This document shows positions 1-61,496 of a stretch of 61,496 bases of DNA, piece by piece (positions within the stretch are counted from its first letter, which is position 1; each line of letters begins with the position of its first letter). The notes beneath the pieces are model-generated. The model saw only the letters and a program-made list of their open reading frames with translations, made no database searches and had not been told where the DNA came from. The translations under genes were made by a program, and so were the position numbers. This stretch comes from a virus (lineage: Duplodnaviria > Caudoviricetes): the IMG/VR virus record IMGVR_UViG_3300021963_000137, positions 1 through 61,496 of that record. One strand, written 5' to 3'.

Positions 1-137
1 AAAATGCTCAATCATTATTTGAAGTAGCTGATAAAACATGTTATGGTGGTTTGAATACTTATATTGGTGACTATCTTAGAGACTTAGGTAAATTACATTG
101 GAAAGTAAAAGCAACTATTGGAAAGAGTTTTAAATGA
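1..137 (+). CDS. dps: 3' part of Dps-family gene (duplicate of the end of 59054-59515)
   Basis: Near-identical to 59379-59515. Confidence 0.85.
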   Translation, partial: NAQSLFEVADKTCYGGLNTYIGDYLRDLGKLHWKVKATIGKSFK

Positions 138-388
138 AACAATATCAAAACTATAACATCTTTGCTTTAAGAGGTGATAGAGAAACATCTGACATGGATG
201 TATGTACAAATCTAGGGTTAGACCCTAAACTAGCTGGTACGCCAGATATTAATGAAGCTGCTATCCGAAAGATGCACAAAGATAATTATGAAGGATACCT
301 TACAAAAGGTTATTCTCCAGATGAAGCTTTATCTTTGGCTGATACAAATGCAGATAGTGTTCGTCAAGAAATTAAAAGACTGATTTAA
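134..388 (+). CDS. Hypothetical protein, 84 aa (duplicate of 59512-59766)
   Basis: ORF overlapping the dps stop; conserved in both copies with 1 aa change. Confidence 0.8.
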   Translation: MKQYQNYNIFALRGDRETSDMDVCTNLGLDPKLAGTPDINEAAIRKMHKDNYEGYLTKGYSPDEALSLADTNADSVRQEIKRLI

Positions 389-433
389 AAAAAATAGCCC
401 TTCAAGGAATTATCCTTGAGGGGCTTTTTATTT
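387..433. terminator. Bidirectional rho-independent terminator between the two arms
   Basis: A-tract, AGCCCTTCAAGGA-ATTA-TCCTTGAGGGGCT hairpin, T-tract; lies between convergent genes. Confidence 0.9.
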
Positions 434-435
434 TG

Positions 436-3400
436 CTATGCGTGAGTCATCTGAGCAATACCATGTTTTATTACATTACCGTTTGTACGTAATGCTTTAA
501 AACCTTGATCTACTTTTCCTTCAAATTCATTTGCAAAAATCTTAAACATATTTTCTGCACCACCTAATTGTTGGTAAGATTCAATCATATTAAATAAGTC
601 TCTAAATTGTGAACCAGATACTGTTAGATTAGGTATACCATCAATCCAACCTGCTTTCTTAGCTTTATCTAATAATTGATTGTTCTTTGCTTTAAGATCT
701 TCCCAACTTTTGATTGAATCTTTTGATCTATTTTTAATATACGCTTCATACTCTGGACTATTATTAGTCTTCTTATTTAAGTCTTCAAAGAAAGCCCCTA
801 ATGCAGGGAAATCTCCTTTAGTACCTATACCTACGTCTGATGCACCAGCTGTTCTTCTAAACACTTCGTCTTTAGCTTTAATGTAAGCATTCTCTAATTG
901 TTTAGCAAACTTTTTAATTTCAGGTATTGCCTGAGGAATTGCTACGTTATTATAAGTATTACGATAAAGATGCATTGTATCCATTGTTGTGATTAATGAA
1001 TCATGAACAGTAGCTACTGGTAAAGGAATTTTTCTATCCGCATTTAAATCTAACATCATTAGCTTAAGCAAGTCAGCATCAGTAGATTGAATAGGCATAA
1101 CACCTAATAACCTAGACAATGCAGAGCCAAGAGCATTTTCAAACAAATCAAATTTATTTTTGGCTTTGTTATAGAATGATTGATTAGGTTTACCAGCAGC
1201 AGCATTGTACATTCTTCTTGCAGCTTGTACTTCAACAATACCTTCAGGAGCTAAATAAGTATTTGTTTCAATACCTCTATCTACAGTAGTATATGGTTGT
1301 CCTTCAGGAGTCATACCCGTTCCTTCTATATCTCTGAATTGATCAGGAATAAAACCTAAGTCAACAGAAGAATATACAGTGTCATCACCCGTAATACCTT
1401 TTAAAATAGGTATTGAGTTAATAACAGCAAACATACGACCAACCTTTTTAAGCATTCTAGTAAAGCTAGGGTCAATTACTTTTCTTAGAGTTGCATCTAA
1501 TGCGTTAGCTAAATCTTGAGCTGCTTCCGTTGAACTATTGTAATTGGGTAAAACATATTCAGCAAATACAGAATTATATTCTTGAGAATTTTCTAAGAAA
1601 GATAATACATGATCAAAGAACATTCCAGAATCTTTACCATAAGAATTCTGCATTAAAGGTGCCTTAAATAAATCAGTTGCTAATTTTTCATTGACTGCAT
1701 TGCTAAAGAAATTTTTCCAACCATCAAGTCTATCTTTGTTATCAACAATTATATTAGATAAATTATCACCAATAATACTTAAAGCATAGCCACGCATATC
1801 AGATAAGTTAGGGTTATAAGAACCTAATCTAATTGCAACTGTTGGTTTACCTGCATACAAAGATTGAATAAAGATACCATTTTGGTTTCCATCATCATAG
1901 TTTAAAGCACTAAGCTTAATAAAACGATTAGCCATTGCTGGATCTATTGCTGCCATACCTAATTGAGCAAAGTCATCATAAAGATTTTGATGTGACTGGG
2001 CTTCACCTCTAGGCATATTAGCAAGTAGGTTAACAATGTTTGATCCTTCAGCTACATTACCTGATAACCAATCATTATATTCTTTACCTAACATACCTAA
2101 ATGTTTACCAATCTCAGGTGTATACATTCTAATTAATTGTATCTCAGGTTGTTTAACAATATCTTTATTGAGTACAGTTGGGTCACCACTATAACTATAG
2201 TAATTAACTACAGCACATTCCATAAGACCAAGAGCAGTTCTTTCATCAGGAGTTAATGCCATTAAAGCTTTGTTACGGGCTTTACCTGACTTGCTAAATA
2301 TACCCATTGCTTTGTCTTGTAAGTTTTTAATTTTTACAGGATCAAAGAAATGATTAGCGTAAGTTAAACCTTGAATACCAAAGTTAAGCATCTCACGAGT
2401 AGCATTTTTAGACGCTAGTATATCAGTTCCAGCATTAGTTCTGAAAAATCGTTGGTTAGCCATTGAATGAGAGTAACCTGTATACACTACACCTTTAATC
2501 TTCTGAGCATTTGCTAAATCATATTCCATAAATTGAATAGCATTATTTATAGTAGTTTTTGCATGTTGATTTTGTAACTCAACAAATTTAGCTCTAGATA
2601 CTGGGTCATTATTATTATAGTCACTAGGGGGTTTAACTCTTTGTTTAAGCTTATTGTAGTCTGATAAAGATACTTTATGACGTTTAGCAAATGGACTTGA
2701 AGAATAGAAGCCTTCTGGACCATCTACCATATTTTTTTTAATATCTTCTAATTGAATACTAGTAGACAACATGGCTTTTGGTAGGAAAATTTCACCGATA
2801 GAACTAAATATATCTTTAACTGTTTCAGCTACAGGTTGTTTAGCACCTTCTATAAATAAAGAATTCTTTGTACCTTGTGAACCAGGCTTAATAAAATTAG
2901 AACCAGATATTTGTGGTACCTTAGAAGGTAAAGATCTACGTTCATCACCAGCTAATGCAGCAGACATATAGCTTAATTCAGCTGCTAAATCTTTCATTTC
3001 TTTAGAAGAACCATACACAATATTATTATCTTTATCTAACATAGGCAGGTGACGATGTTGAGCAATCTCTGCTTCAACTTTAGCTTCTGCTAATTGTCTT
3101 ACTGCTTGAGCAGGTATATTCATACCTAAGTTAGATAAGGCATTGTGCATTGAAGCAATAGTAGAGTTAACCAAATTAGTTTTTGGTTGGGCATCCATAA
3201 GATTACCGTTTTTGTCTCTTACTTCAGCAACATCTTCAAACGGATCTGTCTTAATACCATTTTTAAATAATCGTGTTTGCTCAGTAGCTCGTGCATGCGC
3301 AATACCTAACACTGTAGAGATTGGTCTGGCATATTCTAAAGGAATATTATTAGTATTTAAAATTTCTAAACCAGCAGGAACACCATAGTACCCTTCAGCA

Positions 3401-4050
3401 GTACTTCTAATAACAGCTTCAGGGCTAAACAAATCAGCAGCAGTAGCATCTGACACCATGCTTAATGCAGGTGCTGCACTATCAGCCCATTGTTTAATAA
3501 TACTATCATCCATACCCATAAATTGAGAAGTACCAGCTGGCATAGATTCTGCTGAAGATACTTCTGCTCTTGCCCTAAGAATAGCTTGACCTGCCTCTAC
3601 TGGATCTTCAGTCATTAAGGCAGGAGCCATATTAGGTCTGGTAGATAAGTCAACTTCTTGTTGTTGACCATACTCAGCCATAGTAATAGGCTGAGTCATA
3701 TACTCACCAGTCTGAGGGTCAAACTGAGGCATACCCTGTTCATCTTCTACTAGGCTAAGTCTTTCTCGACCAGCAAGAGATGATTGAGTAGCCTGAGCTA
3801 GGTCTTCAGGAGTTGATTGTGCAGATAACCTATCTATATTAACTGGACCAGCAATACCCCCAGCGGGTAGGGGTACTACAGGAATAGGCTGTGGATTATA
3901 TACATCCATAGCTTGTTTAACTGCTTCTGTCCCAGGTATTTCTACCTGAGGTGCAGCACCAGTACCAAAGGCTTGGTTAGAGAATGCTTGCAATTGCTCT
4001 GCACTTAAAGGTGCTTTGCCTTGCGTATTTACATTTACATTAATTGCCAT
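436..4050 (-). CDS. Putative virion-encapsidated single-subunit RNA polymerase (internal virion protein)
   Basis: Motif A-like YDDGNQNG, motif B-like KAPLMQNSYG (Kx7YG), PIQSTDA, motif C VHDS, in the canonical order; last gene of the ejection-protein block. Confidence 0.75.
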   Translation of the reverse strand: MAINVNVNTQGKAPLSAEQLQAFSNQAFGTGAAPQVEIPGTEAVKQAMDVYNPQPIPVVPLPAGGIAGPVNIDRLSAQSTPEDLAQATQSSLAGRERLSLVEDEQGMPQFDPQTGEYMTQPITMAEYGQQQEVDLSTRPNMAPALMTEDPVEAGQAILRARAEVSSAESMPAGTSQFMGMDDSIIKQWADSAAPALSMVSDATAADLFSPEAVIRSTAEGYYGVPAGLEILNTNNIPLEYARPISTVLGIAHARATEQTRLFKNGIKTDPFEDVAEVRDKNGNLMDAQPKTNLVNSTIASMHNALSNLGMNIPAQAVRQLAEAKVEAEIAQHRHLPMLDKDNNIVYGSSKEMKDLAAELSYMSAALAGDERRSLPSKVPQISGSNFIKPGSQGTKNSLFIEGAKQPVAETVKDIFSSIGEIFLPKAMLSTSIQLEDIKKNMVDGPEGFYSSSPFAKRHKVSLSDYNKLKQRVKPPSDYNNNDPVSRAKFVELQNQHAKTTINNAIQFMEYDLANAQKIKGVVYTGYSHSMANQRFFRTNAGTDILASKNATREMLNFGIQGLTYANHFFDPVKIKNLQDKAMGIFSKSGKARNKALMALTPDERTALGLMECAVVNYYSYSGDPTVLNKDIVKQPEIQLIRMYTPEIGKHLGMLGKEYNDWLSGNVAEGSNIVNLLANMPRGEAQSHQNLYDDFAQLGMAAIDPAMANRFIKLSALNYDDGNQNGIFIQSLYAGKPTVAIRLGSYNPNLSDMRGYALSIIGDNLSNIIVDNKDRLDGWKNFFSNAVNEKLATDLFKAPLMQNSYGKDSGMFFDHVLSFLENSQEYNSVFAEYVLPNYNSSTEAAQDLANALDATLRKVIDPSFTRMLKKVGRMFAVINSIPILKGITGDDTVYSSVDLGFIPDQFRDIEGTGMTPEGQPYTTVDRGIETNTYLAPEGIVEVQAARRMYNAAAGKPNQSFYNKAKNKFDLFENALGSALSRLLGVMPIQSTDADLLKLMMLDLNADRKIPLPVATVHDSLITTMDTMHLYRNTYNNVAIPQAIPEIKKFAKQLENAYIKAKDEVFRRTAGASDVGIGTKGDFPALGAFFEDLNKKTNNSPEYEAYIKNRSKDSIKSWEDLKAKNNQLLDKAKKAGWIDGIPNLTVSGSQFRDLFNMIESYQQLGGAENMFKIFANEFEGKVDQGFKALRTNGNVIKHGIAQMTHA

Positions 4051-8352: not shown

Positions 8353-8369
8353 AATAACCCCTTTTCAGT

Positions 8370-11300
8370 TTATTTTTTCTTAGGTTCAGTATAGGATTTC
8401 CATTTAGGAAGACCACTTGTTTCTGCTATAGCCCAATCTTGGAACGTGCTATAGTTCTCCTGAGTATAACCCGATTTTTCCATTTTAGTTCTAACATCTG
8501 CTGGTATATTCTTATAAGCCCTTTTTAAAGCTTCATATGCAGCTTGATCATCTATCACTACATTATCTTTATTATATTTATTTTGAATAACTCTATCTAA
8601 AGCATTAGTAAATTCAGCCATAGATTTTCCAGATAAATTTTTACCATTAGGCTTCCACAAATCTTTGTCAGAGGGACTTGTAGTTTTAGCAATATTACTT
8701 CTAATAACTTTCCTAATACCGTCAGGATCTTGAAGTCCACTTTCTACAAGTTGAGGAATAGCTAAATTCATAACATCTGCTTTGCTATCAATAGTTAGTC
8801 CTCCAGGAATACTAGAAAGTATTCTATTAGAATTATTAGCTACTGCTTTAGCATTAAAAGGTTTTCCATCTTTATCTTTAGCACCTTCAGGTATTAAAGC
8901 TTCAACCTTTCTAGCAACAGTATCTTCTTCATATCGATGAGCTTCAATACTTTTAACAGCGTTAAATGGAATTAACCTACCATCCATAGTCTGATACTGA
9001 CCTTTATGATATTGAACTGGCATAAGTTCACCATCTACAAGCATCATATCGGGTTTCTTAGGATACTTACCTTTACCACCACCTTCGCCATCATCATCAC
9101 TACCACTACCATTTTTACGACCATACCCAGGAGGATAATGCTGAACATTAGCTGCTAGATATGTAGTAACAGCACGCATATTATTCATCCAGTCTTCAGG
9201 TGTTTCAAAATTACCTTTTAACATACTCATAGCTTGACTTCTTACTGCAGGAGATACATCCATAGCTAAATACTTTTGTAAATTATCACTAAGATGCTCT
9301 TGATCTTTTCTGGCAGCAGCAGATTTTTCGTAAGTCCATTTGTTATCTTCTTTTAACTGTTGGAATTTACGGTATTGTATTTCGCTTTCAGCTCTAGCTT
9401 CTTCTTTTCTTTCTGCTAAAGATAATCTTTTCTCATTAAGTTTCCTATCAGCTTCTGCTTTCTTATCGGCTTTAGCTTGTCCAGCTAATGTAATAGCAGT
9501 ACGCATATCTTCACGTTCAGCTTGAGCAGCTAATTGCTTATCTTGACGCTTGTTAGCCTCTTCTTGAGCCTGTCTACGTAAAGAAGTTTCAAATGCTTGT
9601 CTACCACCATAAGATAATGCACGAGCAGTGTCATAACCCATAGCACGACCTGCTACAGTAGCTACAGCTAATCGAGCAACTTCCTGATCATTTAAACCTA
9701 AGACACTCTTAATACCTTTGTATGTAAATAAATCTTTAAGCGAATCAATAGCAGACTCATCGTCTTTATTAGCTATAGCTTTATCAACAGCTTTTTGAGA
9801 ACCTTTTAATTGTTTAATCCAATATTCAGGTCTGGTATCATCATCTTCTGGTTTTAATGGAGGAACAATTTTACCTTCATTAGCATCTATTATTGCTTGC
9901 ATCTCAGCATTAAATGCTTGTTTAGCATTTGGATCAGGGATGAATGCAACTGGCTCTACAGGCATGTTGATGGTACTATTGTTACCACCAACAGACTTAG
10001 CTACAACAGGAGGAGGTACAGGAAAACGATCTTTACCTTCAACAACTACCTTAGGTTTAGCAGCAAGCATTGGTAAAGGTTCAATTACTTCCATACCTAC
10101 ATTTTTAAAAGGTCTTTCTGGGATGTCAAATTCTGAACTAACACTACCATTGATTTTTGCTTGTACATCTTTAAGCTTCATGTCTGCAGTTACATCTGGA
10201 TAAGCAGAACGAGGAACAGCATCTTCTATTTTATCTTTTGTTGTAGAAATATTAACTAGATTTTCAGGGATTACCTTTTGTTGATAATCTATTACTGGGC
10301 CAGCAATTACTGTTGGTTCAAGTATAGGGCTAGACTCAGGTACATCTTCAACACCATTTTCATAATGATAACTAGCTGAACTACCTCTATTAAAGTCATA
10401 TACTCTTTCAGTACCATCTTCAAAAGAAGAACCTGGTACATCAGAATGCTCATATGCTAATGATGGTACAGGTACTTGAATGGTACCTTCATTATAGTTC
10501 ATTAATTGAGGTACTGCAGAAGTGCCGTCAGCATATAACGTATCAGTATATCCTACAGGTATTTTAACACCTAGTCTATCAGAAAAAGGTGATTGACCAG
10601 CATTAACTCGCATGTCTCTATAAGCAGCAGCTTTATTAGCTATTGCATCATTCATTTGACCTTGAGTAATTAATTGAACTTCTTTGTTACTTAATGTAGG
10701 AACTAAACTAGGGTATTGACCCTTATTATCATCAAGAGTATACTCAGTCATTGCACTAGGTCTAATAGATATTTCTTGATTATAAACAGGTATTTCACCC
10801 ATATAACCTTTTCCTTTAGGCATAGGCATCTCATATGATATTGAACCTTGAGTAGGATTATCATTCTGATAACGGAAGCCGTCAGGAGCTAACCCTTTAC
10901 CTTTAACTTTTTTAGTACCATCTTTGTATCCAGCAGCCTGTTGTACTCTACTAGGGATAACATCTGAGTTAACAATGTTAATAGAGCCATCACGAAATTC
11001 TAAAAAACCTTTTTTAGTTTTGTTAGCTTTTCTACCTTCTTGAACCATACGTTTAATAATGGGTTTATTCTTAGGGTCTTGTGCGGCAGGTTCAGGGATA
11101 ACAGCTTCGCCAGGAGTTAGCATAGCAGGTACTGTATCTGTATTTTGTTTAGCAGCTTTCCTAGCTTTAGCAGCATCTTCTGCTTGATATGGCAACATGT
11201 GCTGACCACGTTTAAATAGTTCTGTCCCTGCTAATGGGTTAGGTGATTTAACTTTTAATGGAGCACCTAAGGTACCCATCTTATATTTGTGAACGTCTTC

Positions 11301-11465
11301 TTTATGACCTAATGTTTGTCCAGCCTTACCAGCAGCTTCTACAAGTTTAATTTCATGTAGTTGTTGTTTACGGGCTTCCTCCCGTTCCATCTTAGCTGTT
11401 TCTCTGGCTTCTTGAGAAGCAAACTTTAAGTACTCTCTGTGTTGTTTAGCAGATAGTGGTCCCAT
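8370..11465 (-). CDS. Internal virion protein
   Basis: 1031 aa; TDTVPAMLTPGEAVI motif, repeated [FY]x[DEN]G[TSV] motifs, coiled-coil region; position in ejection block. Confidence 0.65.
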   Translation of the reverse strand: MGPLSAKQHREYLKFASQEARETAKMEREEARKQQLHEIKLVEAAGKAGQTLGHKEDVHKYKMGTLGAPLKVKSPNPLAGTELFKRGQHMLPYQAEDAAKARKAAKQNTDTVPAMLTPGEAVIPEPAAQDPKNKPIIKRMVQEGRKANKTKKGFLEFRDGSINIVNSDVIPSRVQQAAGYKDGTKKVKGKGLAPDGFRYQNDNPTQGSISYEMPMPKGKGYMGEIPVYNQEISIRPSAMTEYTLDDNKGQYPSLVPTLSNKEVQLITQGQMNDAIANKAAAYRDMRVNAGQSPFSDRLGVKIPVGYTDTLYADGTSAVPQLMNYNEGTIQVPVPSLAYEHSDVPGSSFEDGTERVYDFNRGSSASYHYENGVEDVPESSPILEPTVIAGPVIDYQQKVIPENLVNISTTKDKIEDAVPRSAYPDVTADMKLKDVQAKINGSVSSEFDIPERPFKNVGMEVIEPLPMLAAKPKVVVEGKDRFPVPPPVVAKSVGGNNSTINMPVEPVAFIPDPNAKQAFNAEMQAIIDANEGKIVPPLKPEDDDTRPEYWIKQLKGSQKAVDKAIANKDDESAIDSLKDLFTYKGIKSVLGLNDQEVARLAVATVAGRAMGYDTARALSYGGRQAFETSLRRQAQEEANKRQDKQLAAQAEREDMRTAITLAGQAKADKKAEADRKLNEKRLSLAERKEEARAESEIQYRKFQQLKEDNKWTYEKSAAARKDQEHLSDNLQKYLAMDVSPAVRSQAMSMLKGNFETPEDWMNNMRAVTTYLAANVQHYPPGYGRKNGSGSDDDGEGGGKGKYPKKPDMMLVDGELMPVQYHKGQYQTMDGRLIPFNAVKSIEAHRYEEDTVARKVEALIPEGAKDKDGKPFNAKAVANNSNRILSSIPGGLTIDSKADVMNLAIPQLVESGLQDPDGIRKVIRSNIAKTTSPSDKDLWKPNGKNLSGKSMAEFTNALDRVIQNKYNKDNVVIDDQAAYEALKRAYKNIPADVRTKMEKSGYTQENYSTFQDWAIAETSGLPKWKSYTEPKKK

Positions 11466-11466
11466 T

Positions 11467-17856: not shown

Positions 17857-17874
17857 CCTATTAGGGGTCTTCTA
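17857..17874 (-). promoter_or_regulatory. Candidate phage RNAP promoter (variant GACCCCTAATAGG)
   Basis: One mismatch to the GTCCCCTAATAG core; intergenic, upstream of the tail/ejection block. Confidence 0.65.
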
Positions 17875-35256: not shown

Positions 35257-35274
35257 GGGGTGTAGTTATAGTTT

Positions 35275-35293
35275 CTCTATTAGGGGACTACTC
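35275..35293 (-). promoter_or_regulatory. Candidate phage RNAP late promoter GAGTAGTCCCCTAATAG
   Basis: Repeat motif at the head of the whole late arm, about 20 nt upstream of terL. Confidence 0.8.
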
Positions 35294-35344
35294 TTTATAC
35301 TTTTTATTTATAGCCCCTTAGTCTTTGTGTGTGAAAAAGAATCA

Positions 35345-35500
35345 GGGGTTTGTTGTTCTCCCCCTCCTGTGTCGTGTGACCCCCCTGTCTCGTGGTGGTC
35401 GGTCGTGCTGCGGTGTCGGGTCGTTCCTGCCTCTCTTCTTCTGTCGGTGGTGCTGTGGCGCTGGTGCTGTCGACTTCCTTTGTTAGCGCTGTCTTGGAGT
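35345..35500 (+). other. Adenine-depleted GC-rich non-coding leader (possible genome-end/first-injected region)
   Basis: 4 A in 156 nt; no A from 35380 to 35472. Confidence 0.6.
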
Positions 35501-35505
35501 TCATT

Positions 35506-35661
35506 ATGCGTTCTATCCTCTTGTTCGTTTGTCTTCGCCGTGGTTTTGGTTTGTCCTTCTCTACTGCCTGTGGTCACTTGCTTAATGCTTGGGGTACTGC
35601 TCAGTGGTACAGTGACATGTCTACTGTTGACCTGTTCCTGTTAGCTACTCGTAAGTCTTAA
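35506..35661 (+). CDS. First early gene, 51 aa
   Basis: GGAG RBS then ATG at 35506. Confidence 0.5.
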   Translation: MRSILLFVCLRRGFGLSFSTACGHLLNAWGTAQWYSDMSTVDLFLLATRKS

Positions 35662-35711
35662 GGGCTTTCTCGATTGGCTCCTTGTGGGGTCTTTCGAGAG
35701 CGTCTTGCTCT
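35662..35711 (+). repeat. Early intergenic structured element type 1, diverged copy
   Basis: Hairpin followed by GAGAGCGTCTTGCTCT. Confidence 0.6.
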
Positions 35712-35726
35712 GTTTGGGAGGTTGGT

Positions 35727-35870
35727 ATGTATCTCGGTGACTTGCTTCGTAAGAAGCTTGCTGAGCTGCCACCTGTGGATGAGGCGGCACTTGATGCTTA
35801 CCTTGACGAAGTAGAAGAAGAATTCTGCTTTGTTTGTGGTAATGAGTGTTGCAATCATCCTCAGGATTAA
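35727..35870 (+). CDS. Small acidic early protein with C-terminal Cys cluster
   Basis: GGGAGG RBS; CFVCGNECC. Confidence 0.6.
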   Translation: MYLGDLLRKKLAELPPVDEAALDAYLDEVEEEFCFVCGNECCNHPQD

Positions 35871-35875
35871 GAGGC

Positions 35876-35921
35876 TGCCTGTAGCATCCTGTTAGGGTGC
35901 TATGGAGAGCGATCTTGCTCT
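35876..35921 (+). repeat. Early intergenic structured element type 1
   Basis: TGCCT-hairpin-GGAGAGCGATCTTGCTCT. Confidence 0.75.
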
Positions 35922-35940
35922 ATTCTAAAAGGGGTTTGTT

Positions 35941-36156
35941 ATGTCTTCTTCTTTTGTTGTCTACGCTGTGTCTGCTTCTGCTCCTCAGTGTGTTGTTGCT
36001 AGCTTTGATACTGTTGCTGAAGCTAATGCTGCTGCTTGGTTGGCTAACTCTATCGATAGTACTTGTGACTATCGTGTTGATGAGGTCTTGCTTGATGATT
36101 TGCTTTGTTCTGAGTGGAAGACCAAGGAGAGAATGTCAGGATACGAGTTACTTTAA
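35941..36156 (+). CDS. Small early protein
   Basis: AGGGG RBS; bounded by repeat elements. Confidence 0.6.
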   Translation: MSSSFVVYAVSASAPQCVVASFDTVAEANAAAWLANSIDSTCDYRVDEVLLDDLLCSEWKTKERMSGYELL

Positions 36157-36165
36157 TAAGATCTT

Positions 36166-36208
36166 TGCCTATTGGGTATAACAACCCAATGGAGAGCGAT
36201 CTTGCTCT
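36166..36208 (+). repeat. Early intergenic structured element type 1
   Basis: TGCCT-different hairpin-GGAGAGCGATCTTGCTCT. Confidence 0.75.
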
Positions 36209-36232
36209 TGTACATAACTCAAGGAGATTAAC

Positions 36233-36430
36233 ATGTACACAATCCTCAACGTCCTTACCGCTATCATGTGGTATGCTGCTGCATCATGGTCTATAGATCA
36301 GATCTATACTCATGACAACAATAGCCCTCTTATGATTGCTATCTTAGTTGCATCAGCTGTCTTAGCGGGTATGCAAGCATTTGATCTGATTAACAACATT
36401 GAAGACAAACACAACCAAGGAGAACTGTAA
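36233..36430 (+). CDS. Small two-TM early membrane protein
   Basis: AAGGAG RBS; two hydrophobic segments. Confidence 0.65.
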   Translation: MYTILNVLTAIMWYAAASWSIDQIYTHDNNSPLMIAILVASAVLAGMQAFDLINNIEDKHNQGEL

Positions 36431-36571
36431 TGTACTACGTATACCATAGGCTCACTAAGGTATTGATTGCTAAGACTACATCAGTCAGAGTGCTCAATGA
36501 GTACGATCCAACATACTATGAAGTAGTAACCTACTAATAGCATACCTTCTCGGTTAGAGAGACCAGGGCAT

Positions 36572-36587
36572 CAGGGGTAAGTACCTG
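36572..36587 (+). repeat. Early intergenic structured element type 2
   Basis: CAGG-GGTAAGTA-CCTG hairpin. Confidence 0.6.
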
Positions 36588-36615
36588 CCGTTAACATCAA
36601 CTCAAGGAGAACGTT

Positions 36616-36906
36616 ATGTCAGTAGCAGAAATCAAACCAGCATTCGCTATCAAAGGCGATACAACAACAACAGCCTACACATCTACACCATCTATCTTGA
36701 TGGCAGTGTTTGTAGACAAAGAAAACAAATACTGGTATGCAGTAGATGATCAGCAGACTATCCGTAAGATGTCCATCACACGGGATGTTGAACATGCTCG
36801 TAGAGAGTATAAGATTGCTCGTAACCTTGTAGGCAAGAAGGTATACTTTGGTGTCACACAAGGATGGGATGGTAATGTATGGTTCAATGAAGTCATTGAA
36901 GCTTAA
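36616..36906 (+). CDS. Early hypothetical protein
   Basis: AAGGAG RBS. Confidence 0.7.
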   Translation: MSVAEIKPAFAIKGDTTTTAYTSTPSILMAVFVDKENKYWYAVDDQQTIRKMSITRDVEHARREYKIARNLVGKKVYFGVTQGWDGNVWFNEVIEA

Positions 36907-36914
36907 CCTGTAAG

Positions 36915-36965
36915 ACAGTCTTCACGGCTGTATAAAAGTGAGACCTCTTGGGGTAAGTACCAAGA
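36915..36965 (+). repeat. Early structured element type 2 preceded by a predicted pseudoknot
   Basis: TCTTGG-GGTAAGTA-CCAAGA hairpin; ACAGTC/GGCTGT and TTCAC/GTGAG pairings. Confidence 0.6.
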
Positions 36966-36997
36966 TCACATAACACACTCAACACAAGGGGATAAAC

Positions 36998-37246: not shown

Positions 37247-37260
37247 CCAAAGAGAATAAT

Positions 37261-40023: not shown

Positions 40024-40046
40024 ATTTTTAATCCTCATAGTAGTTT

Positions 40047-53823: not shown

Positions 53824-56025
53824 ATGAATCCAGTACAATATCTATCTGAAAGAGTAGCCAAAGTCGTGGTCAACTCAGATAAGATTTATAATGAAGGTGC
53901 TCGACTATTAGCACATCATCCAACATGGGAATATGACTTAGAAAGGTTTGTAAATGAATCGTGGGACACACTCCTCCGCTACTGTATTCGCAACAAGAAT
54001 GCAACTCATAGCGCATCAGTTAAACTTACTTTTGCAAGTGACCTTATCGGAAAACGAATCGCAAGAGCTATTGGAACTGATGAAAGCAACATCAAATCAA
54101 CTCTCGCTCTTGGAGACATTCTACTCGAAACATTTCTCCAAGATAGTCTTATAGATATCTTCAGAGAGTATGATGGATTTAAAGCTCCATACATGGTGCG
54201 TATTGTCAACATGCCTGACAATATTAAGCCTACATTAATAGGTACTTCATTTGAACCTTTATTACCTATAGCTGGTCTATATAGTAACCTTACTAAAGAA
54301 CCATTCATTAAAGGATGGACTAACAGTAAGCTGTTTCATGAGTACTTAGATAAACCTTTTGTACGTGCATTAGAAACATTACGCCAACAACCTTGGGTAT
54401 TAAATCAAGGTGTGTTAGAAGGTATGAGAAACTATAAGCCAACTGAAATACTAAAGTTGGTTGATGATGATGGTGTATTATATGACTACAACATTCATTA
54501 TGAAAATTTAGAACTACCAAAGAAGCTTAAGCACCTAGATGGTACTTCTTTCCTTGGTAAGAAAGACCCTAAGCTACAACGTATGCTTAGTAAGTTCTTT
54601 GAATACAATCAAGTAGTAAAGAAAGCTGAATTGATTGGTGATAGATCATTCTATCAAGAAGTATCCTGTGACTATCGTGGTCGAGTATACTATGCTGAAT
54701 CCTTCTTAGAGTTTCAGGGTAGTGACTTGGCTCGTAGTCTCTTTTTATTCCAGAATAAAAAAGAAATGGATGATCGTGGTTACTTCTGGCTTAAGGTTCA
54801 TACAGCAGGATGCTATAATGAATCGTTTAATGTTAATAAATTACCACATTATTTTACTACTGACTATAAGACTTATTTAAAAGGAGAAGGTTTAGATACT
54901 ATCTCCCTTGATAAAATGACTCTTGAAGATAGAGCTATATGGGTAGATAATAATTTAATTAAATTAGCTAACATTGCTAATCAATATACTATAGATACAT
55001 CCGCTGAAAAGCCTTATAGTTTATTAGCTTGTTGTCTTGAAATTAAAAATTATATCCAAGCTAAATCTAAAGGTAAGAAGCATATGTCTGGTCTTCCTAT
55101 ACCTATTGATGGTAGTAATAATGGATGGCAGCATCTGGCAGCTATGTCTAGAGATACCCAAGCAGCTACCTTAGTATCATTAGTACCTACACCTATACAG
55201 AAAGACTTTTATGTAGCTGTGGCTAAAGAGCTAATTAACATTATGCCTGACTACTTTAAACAAAAGAATATGCCTATGAAAGATATCCGTAAAGGTATTG
55301 CTAAACGAGGTTCTATGACTCGTGCATACTCAGCAGGTAAACAACGTATTGCTAAGAATATGTATGATGACTGCCATGTAGAAGGATTTACTGTTAAATA
55401 TGGTATCACAGAAAAAGAATGTGGAGACTTAGCAGGTAACCTAATTAAGGCTATTAATGCAGTATGCTCTGGTCCATTAAAGACAACTAAGTTCTTACAA
55501 AAAATTGCTGAACATGAGCTTAACTCTGGTCGTAATCAACTATCATGGCATACACCTTCAGGATTCCCTGTAGTGTATAAAGCATTTCTTCAGCATGAAC
55601 GTAAACATAGAGGTACTATTAGAGGTATACCTGGAAACCCTAAAGGAAGGATTAGACATGTTATTAAAGTGGATGTACTCAATAAAGATACAGGTGAAAA
55701 AGTTCCTTGTAGACGCTCCTTTGCTTCTGGCATCAGCCCTAATCTCGTTCATAGTTACGATGCTGCTCATATGGCTAATGTTATCTCTATTTTTAATGGC
55801 AACTTTGGTGCTGTCCACGACAGCTTTAGTACTCATGCCAGTGAAGTGGATTTTCTTCAGGAAGTAACTAAGATGACCTTTGTAGCACAGTATGATATAG
55901 AAAACTTCTTTAGTAATCTTATGGATACATTAATGCTTAACAAAGATACATTCACTTACCCTCCACCAGAAGAAGGTACATTAGATTTAAAACAAGTCTA
56001 TGAATCTAAATACTTTTTCTGCTAG
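53824..56025 (+). CDS. T7-type single-subunit DNA-directed RNA polymerase
   Basis: DYRGRVY, motif A IDGSNNGWQH, motif B RKGIAKRGSMTRAY, PNLVHSYDA, motif C VHDSF. Confidence 0.95.
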   Translation: MNPVQYLSERVAKVVVNSDKIYNEGARLLAHHPTWEYDLERFVNESWDTLLRYCIRNKNATHSASVKLTFASDLIGKRIARAIGTDESNIKSTLALGDILLETFLQDSLIDIFREYDGFKAPYMVRIVNMPDNIKPTLIGTSFEPLLPIAGLYSNLTKEPFIKGWTNSKLFHEYLDKPFVRALETLRQQPWVLNQGVLEGMRNYKPTEILKLVDDDGVLYDYNIHYENLELPKKLKHLDGTSFLGKKDPKLQRMLSKFFEYNQVVKKAELIGDRSFYQEVSCDYRGRVYYAESFLEFQGSDLARSLFLFQNKKEMDDRGYFWLKVHTAGCYNESFNVNKLPHYFTTDYKTYLKGEGLDTISLDKMTLEDRAIWVDNNLIKLANIANQYTIDTSAEKPYSLLACCLEIKNYIQAKSKGKKHMSGLPIPIDGSNNGWQHLAAMSRDTQAATLVSLVPTPIQKDFYVAVAKELINIMPDYFKQKNMPMKDIRKGIAKRGSMTRAYSAGKQRIAKNMYDDCHVEGFTVKYGITEKECGDLAGNLIKAINAVCSGPLKTTKFLQKIAEHELNSGRNQLSWHTPSGFPVVYKAFLQHERKHRGTIRGIPGNPKGRIRHVIKVDVLNKDTGEKVPCRRSFASGISPNLVHSYDAAHMANVISIFNGNFGAVHDSFSTHASEVDFLQEVTKMTFVAQYDIENFFSNLMDTLMLNKDTFTYPPPEEGTLDLKQVYESKYFFC

Positions 56026-59812: not shown

Positions 59813-59814
59813 TG

Positions 59815-61496
59815 CTATGCGTGAGTCATCTGGGCAATACCATGTTTTATTACATTACTATTTGTACGTAATGCTTTAAAACCTTGATCTACTTTTCCTT
59901 CAAATTCATTTGCAAAAATCTTAAACATATTTTCTGCACCGCCTAATTGTTGGTAAGATTCAATCATATTAAATAAGTCTCTGAATTGTGAACCAGATAC
60001 TGTTAGATTAGGTATACCATCAATCCAACCTGCTTTCTTAGCTTTATCTAATAATTGATTGTTCTTTGCTTTAAGCTCTTCCCAACTTTTGATTGGGTCT
60101 TTTGATCTGTTTTTAATATATGCTTCATACTCTGGACTATTATTAGTCTTTTTATTTAAGTCTTCAAAGAAAGCGCCTAATGCAGGGAAGTCTCCTTTAG
60201 CACCAATACCTACGTCTGATGCACCAGCTGTTCTTTTAAACACTTCATCTTTAGCTTTGATATAAGCATCTTGTAATTGTTTAGCAAACTTTTTAATCTC
60301 AGGTATTGCCTGAGGAATTGCTACGTTATTATAAGTATTACGATAGAGATGCATTGTATCCATTGTTGTGATTAATGAATCATGAACAGTAGCTACTGGT
60401 AAAGGTATTTTTCTATCCGCATTTAAATCTAACATCATTAGCTTAAGCAAGTCAGCATCAGTAGATTGAATAGGCATAACACCTAACAATCTAGACAATG
60501 CAGAGCCAAGAGCATTTTCAAACAAATCAAATTTATTTTTGGCTTTGTTATAGAATGATTGATTAGGTTTACCAGCAGCAGCATTGTACATCCTTCTTGC
60601 TGCTTGTACTTCAACAATACCTTCAGGGGCTAAATAAGTATTTGTTTCAATACCTCTATCTACAGTAGTATATGGTTGTCCTTCAGGAGTCATACCCGTG
60701 CCTTCTACATCTCTGAATTGATCAGGAATAAAACCTAAATCAACAGAAGAATACACAGTGTCATCACCAGTAATACCTTTTAAAATAGGTATTGAGTTAA
60801 TAACAGCAAACATACGACCAACCTTTTTAAGCATACGAGTAAAACTTGGATCAATTACTTTTCTTAAAGTTGCGTCTAATGCGTTAGCTAAATCTTGTGC
60901 TGCTTCAGTTGAACTGTTGTAGTTAGGTAAAACATATTCAGCAAATACAGAATTATACTCTTGAGAATCTTCTAAGAAAGATAATACATGATCAAAGAAC
61001 ATTCCAGAATCTTTACCATAAGAATTCTGCATTAAAGGCGCTTTAAATAAATCAGTTGCTAACTTCTCATTAACTGCATTACTAAAGAAATTTTTCCAGC
61101 CATCAAGCCTATCTTTGTTATCAACAATTATATTAGATAAATTATCACCAATAATACTTAACGCATAACCACGCATGTCAGATAAGTTAGGGTTATAAGA
61201 ACCTAATCTAATTGCAACTGTTGGTTTACCTGCATACAAGGATTGAATAAAAATACCATTCTGATTTCCATCATCATAGTTTAAAGCACTAAGCTTAATA
61301 AAACGATTAGCCATTGCGGGATCCATTGCTGCCATACCTAATTGAGCAAAGTCATCATAAAGATTTTGATGTGATTGAGCTTCACCTCTAGGCATATTAG
61401 CAAGTAGGTTAACAATGTTTGATCCTTCAGCTACATTACCTGATAACCAATCATTATATTCTTTACCTAACATACCTAAATGTTTACCAATCTCAG
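59815..61496 (-). CDS. Partial duplicate of the putative virion RNA polymerase (C-terminal half)
   Basis: About 10 aa differences from the first copy; truncated by the window end. Confidence 0.8.
   Translation of the reverse strand, partial: EIGKHLGMLGKEYNDWLSGNVAEGSNIVNLLANMPRGEAQSHQNLYDDFAQLGMAAMDPAMANRFIKLSALNYDDGNQNGIFIQSLYAGKPTVAIRLGSYNPNLSDMRGYALSIIGDNLSNIIVDNKDRLDGWKNFFSNAVNEKLATDLFKAPLMQNSYGKDSGMFFDHVLSFLEDSQEYNSVFAEYVLPNYNSSTEAAQDLANALDATLRKVIDPSFTRMLKKVGRMFAVINSIPILKGITGDDTVYSSVDLGFIPDQFRDVEGTGMTPEGQPYTTVDRGIETNTYLAPEGIVEVQAARRMYNAAAGKPNQSFYNKAKNKFDLFENALGSALSRLLGVMPIQSTDADLLKLMMLDLNADRKIPLPVATVHDSLITTMDTMHLYRNTYNNVAIPQAIPEIKKFAKQLQDAYIKAKDEVFKRTAGASDVGIGAKGDFPALGAFFEDLNKKTNNSPEYEAYIKNRSKDPIKSWEELKAKNNQLLDKAKKAGWIDGIPNLTVSGSQFRDLFNMIESYQQLGGAENMFKIFANEFEGKVDQGFKALRTNSNVIKHGIAQMTHA

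What the first reader, a model, noticed from the sequence alone, without database searches (positions are those of the whole stretch)
436..4050. A second, hidden RNA polymerase: compact virion-packaged RNAP as the last ejection protein
Seen: the C-terminal part has, in canonical order, NQRFF...DILASKNATREML, YDDGNQNG (about 1876-1899), KAPLMQNSYG (Kx7YG, about 1636-1665), PIQSTDA and VHDS (997-1008). Known: these correspond to motifs A, B and C of T7-family RNAPs (DGSxSG, Rx3Kx7YG, IHDS), with both catalytic Asp present. Coliphage N4 packages a 3,500-aa virion RNAP whose catalytic core is about 1,100 aa. Inference: this 1204-aa protein, with a Pro/Gln/Ala-rich N-terminal ~200 aa, is a stand-alone mini virion RNAP injected with the DNA. 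The motif B Arg is replaced by Thr (TDLFK), so mechanism or activity may differ.
Basis: partly seen in the sequence, partly recalled or inferred. Interest (0 to 1): 0.95.

Follow-up and report, generated by a model that had tools for sequence, protein, structure and literature searches.

The report
Hidden second phage RNA polymerase
The last gene of this marine phage's virion-protein block encodes a very divergent but apparently active T7/N4-type RNA polymerase, probably carried in the particle and injected with the DNA, although the phage also has an ordinary T7-like polymerase.

Summary
ORF 436-4050 (minus strand, 1204 aa) carries the quoted motifs at the quoted coordinates.

RNA polymerase identity:
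- In 56 homologues down to about 15% identity, R534, R552, D720 and D1017 are invariant. K796 is K or R in all 56, and Y804 is kept in 55.
- An AlphaFold2 model (pLDDT 92, pTM 0.92) matches only single-subunit RNA polymerases at the top of PDB: yeast and human mitochondrial, T7 and N4 mini-vRNAP, E 7e-15 to 2e-10.
- Sequence methods fail: no Pfam, PHROG or PDB hit.

Virion packaging is inferred, not shown:
- It is the last cistron of the late structural arm, directly after two giant proteins.
- This order, with a convergent T7-like RNAP, holds in 9 of 9 related loci, including the isolate CRP-7.
- The protein is almost cysteine-free, like the N4 vRNAP.

No paper describing it turned up in 7 searches. 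The scan had already noted the same family on other genomes.

Verdict: a real, unannotated polymerase family and a new variant of the virion-RNAP theme. Confidence is about 0.9 for an active RNAP and about 0.6 for an injected one.

The parts
436..4050 (-). Gene for the 1204-aa divergent single-subunit RNA polymerase (P0001), candidate compact virion RNAP
   Evidence: ORF and translation. AF2 model has pLDDT 92.0 and pTM 0.92. Foldseek top hits are all single-subunit RNAPs. The family has 89 cluster representatives at E<=1e-3.
2443..2469 (-). HSMANQRFF block (aa 528-536), counterpart of the DxxGR motif; R534 invariant
   Evidence: R534 is kept in 56 of 56. Position 533 is Q24, G17, H8. hhalign places it on the DYRGR block of the canonical RNAP profile, with low statistical support.
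2386..2412 (-). SKNATREML block (aa 547-555) with invariant R552
   Evidence: R552 is kept in 56 of 56 and K548 in 48 of 56.
1876..1899 (-). Motif A, YDDGNQNG (aa 718-725); catalytic D720; G725 where family A DNA polymerases have the steric-gate Glu (that rule is recalled)
   Evidence: D720 is kept in 56 of 56 and G725 in 50 of 56. D720 sits at the end of beta strand 711-716 (model numbering) and is followed by a helix. It aligns with the invariant D429 of the canonical RNAP profile.
1636..1665 (-). Motif B, K-x7-YG (aa 796-805), on the O-helix-like helix
   Evidence: K796 is K47/R9, Y804 is kept in 55 of 56 and G805 in 41 of 56. The helix is 784-798 in model numbering. T792 occupies the canonical Arg position.
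1072..1092 (-). IQSTDAD block (aa 987-993), counterpart of the HSxD / QGxxAD block that precedes motif C
   Evidence: Q988 and D991 are each kept in 55 of 56. The block is conserved in CRP-7 gp33.
997..1008 (-). Motif C, VHDS (aa 1015-1018); catalytic D1017
   Evidence: H1016 is kept in 55 of 56 and D1017 in 56 of 56. The motif lies in the turn between strands 1007-1010 and 1013-1017 of the model. This is the only stretch that Pfam sees: DNA_pol_A, E 0.034.
396..425 (.). Strong hairpin terminator (13 pairs, 7 G-C) flanked by T/A runs, between the convergent arms, just after the stop codon
4051..8352 (-). 1433-aa cysteine-free, all-helical protein. Its stop codon is followed at once by the polymerase ATG. 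Candidate gp16-like ejection protein.
   Evidence: Gene junction. It always lies directly upstream of the polymerase homologue. It has 0 Cys. The AF2 model is all helix but only pLDDT 52.9. Its best Foldseek row is the PhiM1 pre-infection ejectosome, E 0.027, which is not significant.
8370..11465 (-). 1031-aa cysteine-free protein of a mosaic family whose other members carry cell-wall hydrolase domains
   Evidence: Of 61 homologues, 5 have PF01464 (SLT) and 11 have PF05838 (GH108 lysozyme). The window's copy has no Pfam hit and 0 Cys.
17858..17869 (-). Nearest upstream copy (1 mismatch) of the phage promoter-like core GTCCCCTAATAG on the late strand
   Evidence: Seven sites have <=1 mismatch. 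Fourteen sites have <=2 mismatches, against 3.1 expected.
59815..61494 (-). Second, partial copy (aa 646-1204) of the same gene, from the overlapping end of the assembly; a different allele
   Evidence: 98% protein identity. 68 of 1677 nt differ, as 56 synonymous and 10 non-synonymous codon changes.
53824..56025 (+). The phage's canonical T7-like RNA polymerase (733 aa)
   Evidence: PF00940, E 3.4e-55
35341..36965 (+). Start of the early arm: adenine-poor leader plus five intergenic hairpin elements and no T7-type promoter core. Candidate template region for the injected polymerase (inferred).
   Evidence: The leader and the elements recur in two relatives.

Best explanation
P0001 is a catalytically competent, very divergent member of the T7 / mitochondrial / N4 single-subunit RNA polymerase superfamily. 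It founds a family of its own, about 1160-1460 aa long and almost cysteine-free.

Proposed mechanism:
1. It is made late, as the last cistron of the structural and ejection-protein arm, which carries the T7-type promoter core.
2. It is packed into the capsid with the two giant helical proteins encoded just upstream.
3. It is expelled with them through the tail at infection.
4. It then transcribes the first genes of the early arm (about 35.3-39.5 kb). These genes lack the T7-type promoter core and instead carry conserved hairpin elements.
5. The canonical T7-like RNAP (53824-56025) then takes over middle and late transcription.

Shown here: the gene, the motifs and their conservation, the fold, the synteny, the cysteine depletion and the purifying selection.

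Inferred: polymerase activity, packaging and ejection, the template and the promoters.
For: Fold:
- The AF2 model has pLDDT 92.0 and pTM 0.92.
- Foldseek against PDB gives 73 hits at E<=1e-3, and every listed row (to rank 48) is a single-subunit RNAP. Examples: yeast mtRNAP 8c5u_A 7e-15, human POLRMT 2e-12, T7 RNAP 3e2e_A 1e-11, N4 mini-vRNAP 3c46_B 3e-11.
- In BFVD, every named row to rank 42 is an RNA polymerase or N4-type vRNAP piece, apart from two 'Coil containing protein' rows and one 'Uncharacterized protein' row; 13 rows carry no name. The first DNA polymerase is at rank 44, E 6.8e-5.

Catalytic residues:
- R534, R552, D720 and D1017 are kept in 56 of 56.
- K796 is K or R in 56 of 56, and Y804 is kept in 55 of 56.
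- G725 (50 of 56) sits where DNA polymerases have the steric-gate Glu (that rule is recalled).
- A collinear motif-by-motif hhalign alignment to the phage's own RNAP profile places DxxGR, A, B and C in order.

Selection: between the two alleles, 56 codon changes are synonymous and 10 are non-synonymous.

Late and virion context:
- The arm holds terminase, portal, scaffold, major head, structural and fibre proteins, and then the three giant proteins.
- The upstream gene's stop codon is followed at once by this gene's ATG, and a strong terminator follows this gene.
- A promoter-core copy lies upstream at 17858.
- The order 1400-aa protein, polymerase, convergent T7-like RNAP holds in 9 of 9 loci.
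- CRP-7 gp33 is a member: hhalign probability 100%, E 2e-44.

Cysteine:
- P0001 has 1 Cys in 1204 aa, and 48 of 56 family members have none.
- The five consecutive genes 436-12680 have 1 Cys in 4071 aa.
- The canonical RNAPs have 9-14 Cys in about 730 aa.
- N4 vRNAP has 0 in 3500 aa. CRP-7 gp33, gp34 and gp35 have 0, against 14 in its RNAP.

Neighbours: relatives of the 1031-aa protein carry SLT or GH108 domains (16 of 61), as expected of ejected cell-wall-piercing proteins.

Early arm: no promoter core occurs on the plus strand before 39526. Sigma-70-like sites are not enriched, 17 against 21.5 in shuffles. The hairpin elements are conserved.
Against: - There is no direct evidence that the protein is in virions or is ejected, and no transcript data.
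- Sequence-profile links to known RNAPs are not significant: hhalign against the canonical RNAP profile has probability 1.2% and E 0.045, and against N4 mini-vRNAP E 0.33 with a misregistered alignment. Pfam RNA_pol matched only 2 of 39 members, best E 0.0011.
- TM-scores to known RNAPs are modest, 0.40-0.52 on the target.
- The Asp-Asp geometry in the model was not measured.
- The canonical motif-B Arg is absent: T792 here, and 17 of 56 members have no basic residue there.
- The phage already has a complete T7-like RNAP, and phages of that type normally rely on the host polymerase for early genes (recalled), so a virion enzyme is not strictly required.
- The early hairpins could equally be RNA processing or termination sites. 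One of the two second-class hairpins folds no better than shuffles, z 0.11.
- The identity of the 1433-aa neighbour as an ejection protein rests on a low-confidence model and a non-significant match.
Confidence: 0.6

Rival explanations
1. It is an active second RNA polymerase that is not packaged. It is made late and works in the cytoplasm on a special gene class, or primes replication, comparable in logic to N4 RNAPII being a separate phage enzyme for one temporal class.
For: The fold and catalytic residues are as for the best explanation. Nothing measured here shows packaging. The phage has a clear division of promoter-like elements, so more than one specificity is plausible.
Against: The T7-type promoter core already heads the late arm (35277, 17858) and the middle genes. 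That leaves the earliest genes as the class without it, and a late-made unpackaged enzyme cannot serve them. Extreme cysteine depletion is shared with the adjacent giant proteins and with N4 vRNAP, but not with any replication or transcription protein of this genome. The position directly abutting the 1433-aa protein is fixed in 9 of 9 loci.
Confidence: 0.15
2. It is an ejected structural protein that keeps a polymerase fold. Its main job is mechanical: anchoring or pulling the DNA as part of the ejectosome, in the slot of T7 gp16. RNA synthesis is secondary or lost in some members.
For: It occupies the last place of the ejection block. In Schitoviridae the vRNAP takes the gp16 slot and is the last ejection protein (passages of PMC13434306). 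The motif-B basic position is variable. The family evolves much faster than the canonical RNAP: 27% against 73% identity in L021-L023, and 51% against 78% in L013.
Against: Both metal-binding Asp, the motif-B Lys/Arg and Tyr, and two Arg are kept in 55-56 of 56 sequences at about 15-48% overall identity. That is hard to explain without catalysis. A separate 1433-aa helical protein already fills a gp16-like role.
Confidence: 0.12
3. It is another kind of nucleotidyl transferase on the same palm fold, such as a DNA polymerase, a primase-like enzyme or an RNA-templated polymerase, and not a DNA-dependent RNA polymerase.
For: The only Pfam signal is to DNA_pol_A at motif C, E 0.034. The block before motif C (IQSxDA) looks more like the QGxxAD of family A DNA polymerases than the HSQD of T7 RNAP (both recalled).
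Against: Foldseek ranks RNAPs 9-10 orders of magnitude ahead of the first DNA polymerase. The match spans the RNAP-specific N-terminal domain, with about 1000 aligned columns. Gly, not Glu, sits five residues after the motif-A Asp. No exonuclease domain was detected. The phage already has a family A DNA polymerase and a primase-helicase.
Confidence: 0.06

Closest known systems
Coliphage N4 virion RNA polymerase gp50 (Schitoviridae), in particular its central mini-vRNAP domain (residues 998-2103; PDB 2po4, 3c46, 9pnq)
   Same: Both have the single-subunit T7-type polymerase fold: Foldseek E 3e-11 to 2e-10, TM on target 0.39-0.43. Both are very divergent in sequence yet keep the DxxGR-like, A, B and C motifs (motif set per PMC4496689). 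Both are encoded with the ejection proteins and both have essentially no cysteine: 0 of 3500 in N4, and 0 in 48 of 56 family members here. The size of P0001 (1204 aa) is close to that of mini-vRNAP (1106 aa).
   Different: There is no detectable sequence relationship: BLASTP E 0.27 and hhalign E 0.33. P0001 is free-standing, whereas in N4 the domain is flanked by about 1000-aa and 1400-aa domains in one 3500-aa chain. The host phage is not a schitovirus; it is CRP-7-like, with an SU10-type portal. It also encodes a canonical single-chain T7-like RNAP, which N4 lacks (N4 uses the heterodimeric RNAPII and then the host enzyme; PMC4496689). Packaging and hairpin-promoter use are proven for N4 and only inferred here.
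T7-like phage RNA polymerases and mitochondrial RNA polymerases (Pfam PF00940)
   Same: They give the best structural matches: yeast mtRNAP 7e-15, T7 RNAP 1e-11, BFVD phage RNAPs 5e-14. The motif order is the same and the residue-level counterparts are collinear.
   Different: P0001 is not recognised by PF00940, and only 2 of 39 members match weakly. It is about 470 aa longer than the phage's own RNAP. Its DxxGR block reads NQR. Thr, Lys or Ser replaces the motif-B Arg. The C-terminal region after motif C is 187 aa long. It is cysteine-free. The gene sits in the virion block, not the early or middle region.
Roseobacter phage CRP-7 gp33 (QBQ72826.1, 'hypothetical protein')
   Same: It is a true family member: hhalign probability 100%, E 2e-44 over 854 columns. 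It has the same position after gp35 and gp34 and faces the T7-like RNAP gp30. It has 0 Cys.
   Different: Pairwise similarity is detectable only around motif C, BLASTP E 1e-5. The passages of the CRP-7 paper that I read describe only ORF30 as an RNA polymerase and do not mention ORF33 (PMC6918029).
Crassvirus phi14:2 virion RNAP (gp66)
   Same: It is the other structurally characterised ejected phage RNA polymerase (statement in PMC13434306).
   Different: It has a different fold class, not the T7 right-hand type (recalled: two-barrel). It was not among the Foldseek matches listed.

Membership tests
T7 / mitochondrial / N4 single-subunit RNA polymerase superfamily | Right-hand polymerase fold with the RNAP-type N-terminal domain, thumb, palm and fingers | tested here: met
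   The AF2 model has pLDDT 92. All Foldseek PDB rows listed to rank 48 are single-subunit RNAPs, E 7e-15 to 2e-10, with 960-1390 aligned columns. BFVD gives the same picture.
T7 / mitochondrial / N4 single-subunit RNA polymerase superfamily | Two metal-binding Asp, in motif A and motif C | tested here: met
   D720 and D1017 are kept in 56 of 56. They lie at a strand end and in a beta-turn-beta respectively. Their distance in the model was not measured, because no coordinates are available.
T7 / mitochondrial / N4 single-subunit RNA polymerase superfamily | Motif B R-x3-K-x7-YG on the O helix | tested here: inconclusive
   The K-x7-YG part is present: K796 is K47/R9 and Y804 is kept in 55 of 56. 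The Arg position is T in the query and K34, S11, N4, T2, R2 in the family.
T7 / mitochondrial / N4 single-subunit RNA polymerase superfamily | DxxGR (TxxGR in N4) motif | tested here: inconclusive
   The Arg (R534) is invariant and is followed by two aromatic residues. The preceding residue is Q in the query and G in only 17 of 56. The D/T position is not conserved.
T7 / mitochondrial / N4 single-subunit RNA polymerase superfamily | Significant match to Pfam PF00940 or another sequence profile of the family | tested here: not met
   The query has no PF00940 hit. Only 2 of 39 members match, best E 0.0011. hhalign to the canonical RNAP profile gives E 0.045 and probability 1.2%. The PDB profile search found no polymerase.
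T7 / mitochondrial / N4 single-subunit RNA polymerase superfamily | DNA-templated RNA synthesis | not testable with these tools
   Needs purified protein.
Schitoviridae-type virion RNAP (N4 gp50) | Physically present in virions and ejected into the host | not testable with these tools
   Only context is available: late arm, conserved order, cysteine depletion.
Schitoviridae-type virion RNAP (N4 gp50) | Giant three-domain chain of about 3500 aa (NTD, RNAP, CTD) | tested here: not met
   P0001 is 1204 aa and the RNAP fold spans nearly the whole chain. Family lengths are 1160-1464 aa.
Schitoviridae-type virion RNAP (N4 gp50) | Sequence homology to N4-like vRNAPs | tested here: not met
   BLASTP E 0.27. 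hhalign E 0.33. tblastn of P0001 against 50,697 phage records found no match.
Schitoviridae-type virion RNAP (N4 gp50) | Encoded within the ejection-protein operon | tested here: inconclusive
   It directly follows two giant cysteine-free proteins. Relatives of one of them carry SLT or GH108 domains. The other has a non-significant best match to a phage ejectosome chain. Neither is proven to be an ejection protein.
Schitoviridae-type virion RNAP (N4 gp50) | Hairpin promoters at the first early genes | tested here: inconclusive
   Five intergenic hairpin elements lie at 35.66-36.97 kb. Three fold well (z -3.6 to -4.5), and two share a fixed 8-nt loop on different stems. They recur in two relatives. 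A promoter function is untested.
Family A DNA polymerases (PF00476) | Profile match, a steric-gate Glu five residues after the motif-A Asp, and DNA polymerases as the best fold matches | tested here: not met
   PF00476 reaches only E 0.034 (13.5 bits against a cut-off of 34.3) over 42 residues. Gly occupies the gate position in 50 of 56. The first DNA polymerase in BFVD is at rank 44, and none appears in the PDB listing.

The most novel reading that the evidence does not exclude
CRP-7-type marine podoviruses carry a free-standing, cysteine-free miniature virion RNA polymerase that evolved, or was retained, independently of the N4 lineage. It is threaded through the tail behind a gp16-like protein. 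It then starts on conserved hairpin-loop elements behind an adenine-free leader at the head of the early arm. In this reading it both transcribes the first genes and draws the genome into the cell, and then hands over to a conventional T7-like RNAP. That would be a two-phage-polymerase relay with no need for the host enzyme. It would also suggest that the giant schitovirus vRNAP arose by fusing such a module to its ejection partners.
Probability: 0.25. Interest if true: 0.92.

Novelty: new variant of a known kind. Interest (0 to 1): 0.8.

Why it matters
A T7-type polymerase carried in the virion is currently described as unique to, and a hallmark of, the N4-like Schitoviridae (passages of PMC13434306, June 2026). 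If this protein is packaged, several things follow.
- The strategy exists in a second, unrelated and environmentally widespread podovirus group. The family has 89 cluster representatives. The stretch 34500-37500 of this genome, the early-arm region, was held at a share of half its words or more by two marine and one estuary metagenome runs.
- Here the enzyme is one third the size and coexists with a normal T7-like RNAP.
- It would be a tractable minimal model for how a folded polymerase passes through a phage tail.
- It would be a new, deep branch of single-subunit RNAPs with unknown promoter logic, which is potentially useful for in vitro transcription.
- It would offer a testable route to the origin of the 3500-aa N4 enzyme.
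- It shows that profile searches miss a whole polymerase family that fold prediction recovers.
- A cultured member exists (CRP-7), so the decisive experiments are feasible.

Tried and rejected
Searches that found nothing for P0001:
- Pfam gave only a 42-residue DNA_pol_A hit, E 0.034.
- PHROGs gave nothing.
- phmmer against PDB gave nothing. The family profile against PDB gave only chance rows, best E 0.2.
- tblastn against 50,697 phage records gave nothing.
- hhalign of the family profile was not significant against the window's RNAP alone (E 0.035), against an 18-sequence RNAP profile (E 0.045) or against N4 mini-vRNAP (E 0.33, wrong register).

The neighbours:
- The 1433-aa and 1031-aa proteins have no Pfam or PHROG hit.
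- The atlas search of the 1433-aa protein returned unnamed clusters, plus one SNase-bearing cluster at 0.89, which is a lead only.
- The AF2 model of its residues 234-1433, built from 13 sequences, was poor (pLDDT 52.9). Its Foldseek search gave no row at E<=1e-3. The top row, a PhiM1 ejectosome chain at E 0.027 and TM 0.16-0.18, is suggestive at most.

Promoter core: CTATTAGGGGAC was absent from four more distant relatives and present only in the 91%-identical one, so it could not be used for comparative mapping.

Sequencing runs: all 24 runs listed are kept as contigs, not raw reads. Genome ends and transcript starts therefore could not be examined, and read laying was not used.

Ideas considered and rejected:
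- That the motifs are chance. The conservation and the fold rule this out.
- That the ORF is an assembly artefact of the overlapping ends. Full-length homologues exist in 12 viral contigs.
- That the N-terminal 200 aa are a disordered linker.

Literature: seven full-text searches found no description of this family or of a compact virion RNAP outside Schitoviridae. What I read of each paper:
- PMC6918029: passages only.
- PMC12629253: passages.
- PMC10747016: passages.
- PMC4496689: passages.
- PMC13434306: passages.
Supplementary files were not opened. The CRP-7 paper's supplementary ORF tables might hold an annotation that I could not see.

Full report
WHAT THE WINDOW IS. The 61,496-base window is a complete IMG/VR virus record. 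Its two ends overlap: 1-2117 matches 59379-61496 at 96.5% identity. The genome is therefore about 59.4 kb, and the assembly ran once round a mixed population.

It has two arms. The minus-strand arm (35256 down to 436) is structural:
- terminase, then an SU10-type portal (PF23899, E 4.5e-124);
- scaffold and major head protein;
- virion structural proteins and fibre proteins, one fibre with an S74 chaperone domain;
- then several small unknown proteins and three giant ORFs of 1031, 1433 and 1204 aa.

The plus-strand arm (from about 35.3 kb) holds small early genes. After them come a family A DNA polymerase, a 5'-3' exonuclease, a primase-helicase, a canonical T7-like RNA polymerase (53824-56025; PF00940, E 3.4e-55) and a ribonucleotide reductase. 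By portal similarity the closest named phage is Roseobacter phage CRP-7 (52.6% identity). CRP-7 has the same layout.

THE OBSERVATION. ORF 436-4050 on the minus strand gives a 1204-aa protein, P0001.

A search of 1.84 billion cluster representatives found 89 relatives at E<=1e-3, of which 54 were at E<=1e-30. Most are 1160-1460 aa long, and no known polymerase is among them. Those that carry a source name are all called 'hypothetical protein', and none has a precomputed Pfam domain.

I aligned 56 full-length members, 48% to 15% identical to the query. Conservation in that alignment:
- The invariant columns are R534, R552, D720, D1017 and N1034.
- H1016, Q988, D991 and Y804 are each kept in 55 of 56.
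- K796 is Lys in 47 and Arg in 9.
- G725 is kept in 50.

THE FOLD. An AlphaFold2 model of residues 6-1204, built with a 67-sequence alignment, is confident throughout: mean pLDDT 92.0, pTM 0.92, and 1002 of 1199 residues at pLDDT 90 or more.

Foldseek against PDB gave 73 matches at E<=1e-3. Every row listed, to rank 48, is a single-subunit RNA polymerase:
- yeast mitochondrial RNAP, 7e-15;
- human POLRMT, 2e-12;
- T7 RNAP, 1e-11;
- N4 mini-vRNAP, 3e-11 to 2e-10.
These matches have 960-1390 alignment columns and TM-scores of 0.40-0.52 on the target.

Against BFVD the top rows are T7-like phage RNAPs (5e-14) and pieces of N4-type virion RNAPs. The first DNA polymerase appears at rank 44 with E 6.8e-5.

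Secondary structure places the key residues where a palm and fingers should have them (model numbering is P0001 minus 5):
- D720 is at the end of a beta strand and is followed by a helix.
- K796 lies within a long helix and Y804 just past its end.
- H1016-D1017 sit in the turn of a beta hairpin.

I could not measure the Asp-Asp distance. Model coordinates are not exposed, and both VIA libraries were unavailable.

HOW REMOTE IT IS. Sequence methods do not find the relationship.
- Pfam sees only 42 residues around motif C, as DNA_pol_A at E 0.034.
- PF00940 touches 2 of 39 family members, best E 0.0011.
- PHROGs, PDB phmmer and a PDB profile search find nothing relevant.
- hhalign of the family profile against an 18-sequence profile of the phage's own RNAP type is not significant: probability 1.2%, E 0.045.

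Even so, that 587-column alignment lines up the DYRGR block with aNqRFF, PIDGSNNG with DGnQNG, the K-x7-Y block, and VHSxDA...VHDS with IQsxDg...VHDa, all in order. I read that as consistent with the fold result, not as independent proof.

There is no detectable sequence link to N4 vRNAP: BLASTP E 0.27 and hhalign E 0.33 in the wrong register. The family is therefore roughly equidistant from T7-like, mitochondrial and N4 enzymes, and it is a deep branch of its own.

RNA OR DNA POLYMERASE. Four points favour an RNA polymerase.
- Fold ranking puts RNAPs 9-10 orders of magnitude ahead of DNA polymerases.
- Gly is present five residues after the motif-A Asp, where family A DNA polymerases have the ribose-excluding Glu (that rule is recalled).
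- No exonuclease domain was detected.
- The genome already has a family A DNA polymerase and a primase-helicase.

The Thr at the canonical motif-B Arg position is real. That column is variable in the family: K34, S11, N4, T2, R2. The phage's own canonical RNAP also has Lys four residues before the motif-B Lys; K490 and K494 are both invariant in A4. I give the Thr little weight.

IS IT A VIRION PROTEIN? Nothing here shows that directly. The indirect case has five strands.

(1) Expression context.
- The gene is the last cistron of the structural arm.
- The stop codon of the 1433-aa gene is followed at once by its ATG.
- The only strong terminator in 1-18.5 kb (13 pairs, 7 G-C) lies right after its stop codon.
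- The repeated core GTCCCCTAATAG has seven sites with at most one mismatch. Fourteen sites have up to two mismatches, against 3.1 expected.
- That core heads the late arm at 35277 and recurs at 17858 upstream of this gene.

(2) Conserved order. In 9 of 9 loci examined, a homologue of the 1433-aa protein is followed by the polymerase homologue, and a T7-like RNAP gene converges on it. The nine comprise eight metagenomic loci plus CRP-7. CRP-7 gp33 is a true member: hhalign probability 100%, E 2e-44.

(3) Cysteine. This lead came from earlier notes of this scan, and I tested it here.
- P0001 has 1 Cys in 1204 aa. Of 56 members, 48 have none, 6 have one, and one each has two and four.
- The five consecutive genes from 436 to 12680 hold 1 Cys in 4071 aa.
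- The canonical RNAPs have 9-14 Cys in about 730 aa. The replication proteins of this genome run at 1.4-2.3%.
- N4 vRNAP, counted from EF056009.1, has 0 Cys in 3500 aa.
- CRP-7 gp33, gp34 and gp35 have none, against 14 in its RNAP.

(4) Neighbours.
- Relatives of the 1031-aa protein form a mosaic family. Of 61, 5 carry an SLT transglycosylase domain and 11 a GH108 lysozyme domain. That is what one expects of proteins that leave the capsid to breach the cell wall.
- The 1433-aa protein is predicted all-helical, but the model is poor (pLDDT 52.9).
- Its best Foldseek row is a chain of the PhiM1 pre-infection ejectosome. At E 0.027 and TM below 0.2 this is only a hint.

(5) Selection and rate.
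- The two alleles in the window differ at 68 of 1677 nt, as 56 synonymous and 10 non-synonymous codon changes. The gene is under purifying selection.
- It nevertheless diverges far faster than the canonical RNAP: 51% against 78%, 43% against 66%, and 27% against 73% identity in the same genome pairs.

THE EARLY ARM. This part is context and was followed only partly.
- On the plus strand the promoter-like core first appears at 39526.
- Sigma-70-like sites in 35-42 kb are no more frequent than in shuffles, 17 against 21.5.
- The arm starts with an adenine-poor leader: 7 A in 35341-35503, including a 93-nt A-free run, in a genome with 31.6% A.
- Five intergenic elements follow. Three are double or extended hairpins that share an AGAGC...GCTCT unit. 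As RNA they fold at z -3.6 to -4.5.
- The other two are hairpins with a fixed GGTAAGTA loop on different stems. They fold at z 0.11 and -2.49.
- The leader and both element types recur at the head of the early arm in two relatives whose polymerase homologues are 51% and 43% identical. One of them has 9 A in 630 nt and a 228-nt A-free run.
- By contrast, the T7-type promoter core is not conserved in those two relatives.

These elements are candidates for the promoters of an injected polymerase. N4 uses three hairpin promoters at its first early genes (PMC4496689, passages). They could equally be RNA processing or attenuation sites. I treat this as inference.

COMPARISON WITH WHAT IS KNOWN. The closest functional analogue is the N4 virion RNAP. 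Recent structural papers call a T7-type virion polymerase 'unique to' and a 'hallmark of' Schitoviridae. They list only N4 gp50 and the crassvirus phi14:2 enzyme as structurally characterised virion RNAPs (PMC13434306, passages).

P0001 differs from N4 gp50 in these ways:
- it is free-standing and one third the length;
- it has no sequence similarity to N4 gp50;
- it lives in a CRP-7-type podovirus;
- it coexists with a canonical T7-like RNAP.

The CRP-7 genome paper names only ORF30 as an RNA polymerase in the passages I read, and it does not mention ORF33, proteomics or mass spectrometry (PMC6918029). Its supplements were not seen. Seven full-text searches found no description of this family.

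Earlier notes of this scan describe the same kind of gene on several other genomes and reached similar readings. They are not independent evidence, but they show that the feature recurs.

VERDICT. The polymerase identity is well supported; I put an active single-subunit RNAP at about 0.9. The virion-injection reading is the best explanation but remains inferred, at about 0.6 for the whole statement. I class it as a new variant of a known kind and score interest at 0.8. A cultured member, CRP-7, makes the decisive experiments straightforward: virion mass spectrometry, Asp-mutant transcription assays and rifampicin-resistant early RNA.

Noticed in passing
window 1-2117 and 59379-61496: The two ends of the record overlap at 96.5% identity (73 mismatches, 1 gap), so the assembly joined two alleles of a genome of about 59.4 kb. 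IMG/VR classes the record as linear because the repeat is not exact.
   Followed up: yes
window 35341-35503; L025 787-1416; L024 (reverse strand): The head of the early arm has an adenine-poor sense-strand leader: 7 A in 163 nt, with a 93-nt A-free run. It is conserved and much longer in a relative (9 A in 630 nt, 228-nt A-free run) and shorter in another (58-nt run). A similar GTGTG.GAAA.AG box precedes it in all three. No explanation was tested. An A-free strand has no stop codons, no ATG and no A/T-containing palindromes.
   Followed up: partly
window 35662-35711, 35876-35921, 36167-36208, 36562-36590, 36940-36965: Two classes of intergenic hairpin element occur before the first early genes. 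The first class shares an AGAGC...GCTCT unit. The second has a fixed GGTAAGTA loop on stems that differ in sequence (CAGG/CCTG, CTTGG/CCAAG, and in a relative GCAAGG/CCTTGC). Both classes recur in relatives G001 and G002.
   Followed up: partly
window 17858, 35277, 39526, 40048, 47406, 56028, 58198: Seven copies (at most 1 mismatch) of the core GTCCCCTAATAG, oriented with local transcription. This is probably the promoter of the canonical T7-like RNAP. The core is absent from four more distant relatives and present in the 91%-identical one.
   Followed up: partly
window 8370-11465: The 1031-aa protein belongs to a mosaic family that shares a module of about 190 aa. Different members carry SLT (5 of 61) or GH108 lysozyme (11 of 61) domains. 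The window's copy has no recognisable hydrolase domain.
   Followed up: partly
window 4051-8352: The 1433-aa protein is predicted to be entirely helical, but from a low-confidence model. An atlas neighbour cluster carries an SNase domain in 48% of its members (score 0.89, a lead only). This fits another first-stage note of a degenerate thermonuclease-like N-terminus.
   Followed up: partly
window 56000-57940 versus L001 35552-36391 and 37184-38170: The ribonucleotide reductase is one 646-aa gene here. In CRP-7 it is annotated as two ORFs (matching aa 21-356 and 369-646), separated by another gene and placed inside the structural arm.
   Followed up: no
window 58217-58374: Adjacent tRNA-Met (CAT) and tRNA-Arg (TCT) genes. 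The CRP-7 paper also reports a tRNA-Arg (TCT).
   Followed up: no
window 21745-25311: The 1188-aa fibre protein has an S74 chaperone domain at its C-terminus and several internal repeat families (21- and 63-nt periodicities; 81-nt repeats at 98% identity).
   Followed up: no
window 40630-40659 and 39605-39636: Two strong terminator-like hairpins (13-14 pairs with T runs) lie in the early/middle arm, on either side of a short minus-strand ORF (39643-40038) that has its own promoter-core copy at 40048.
   Followed up: no
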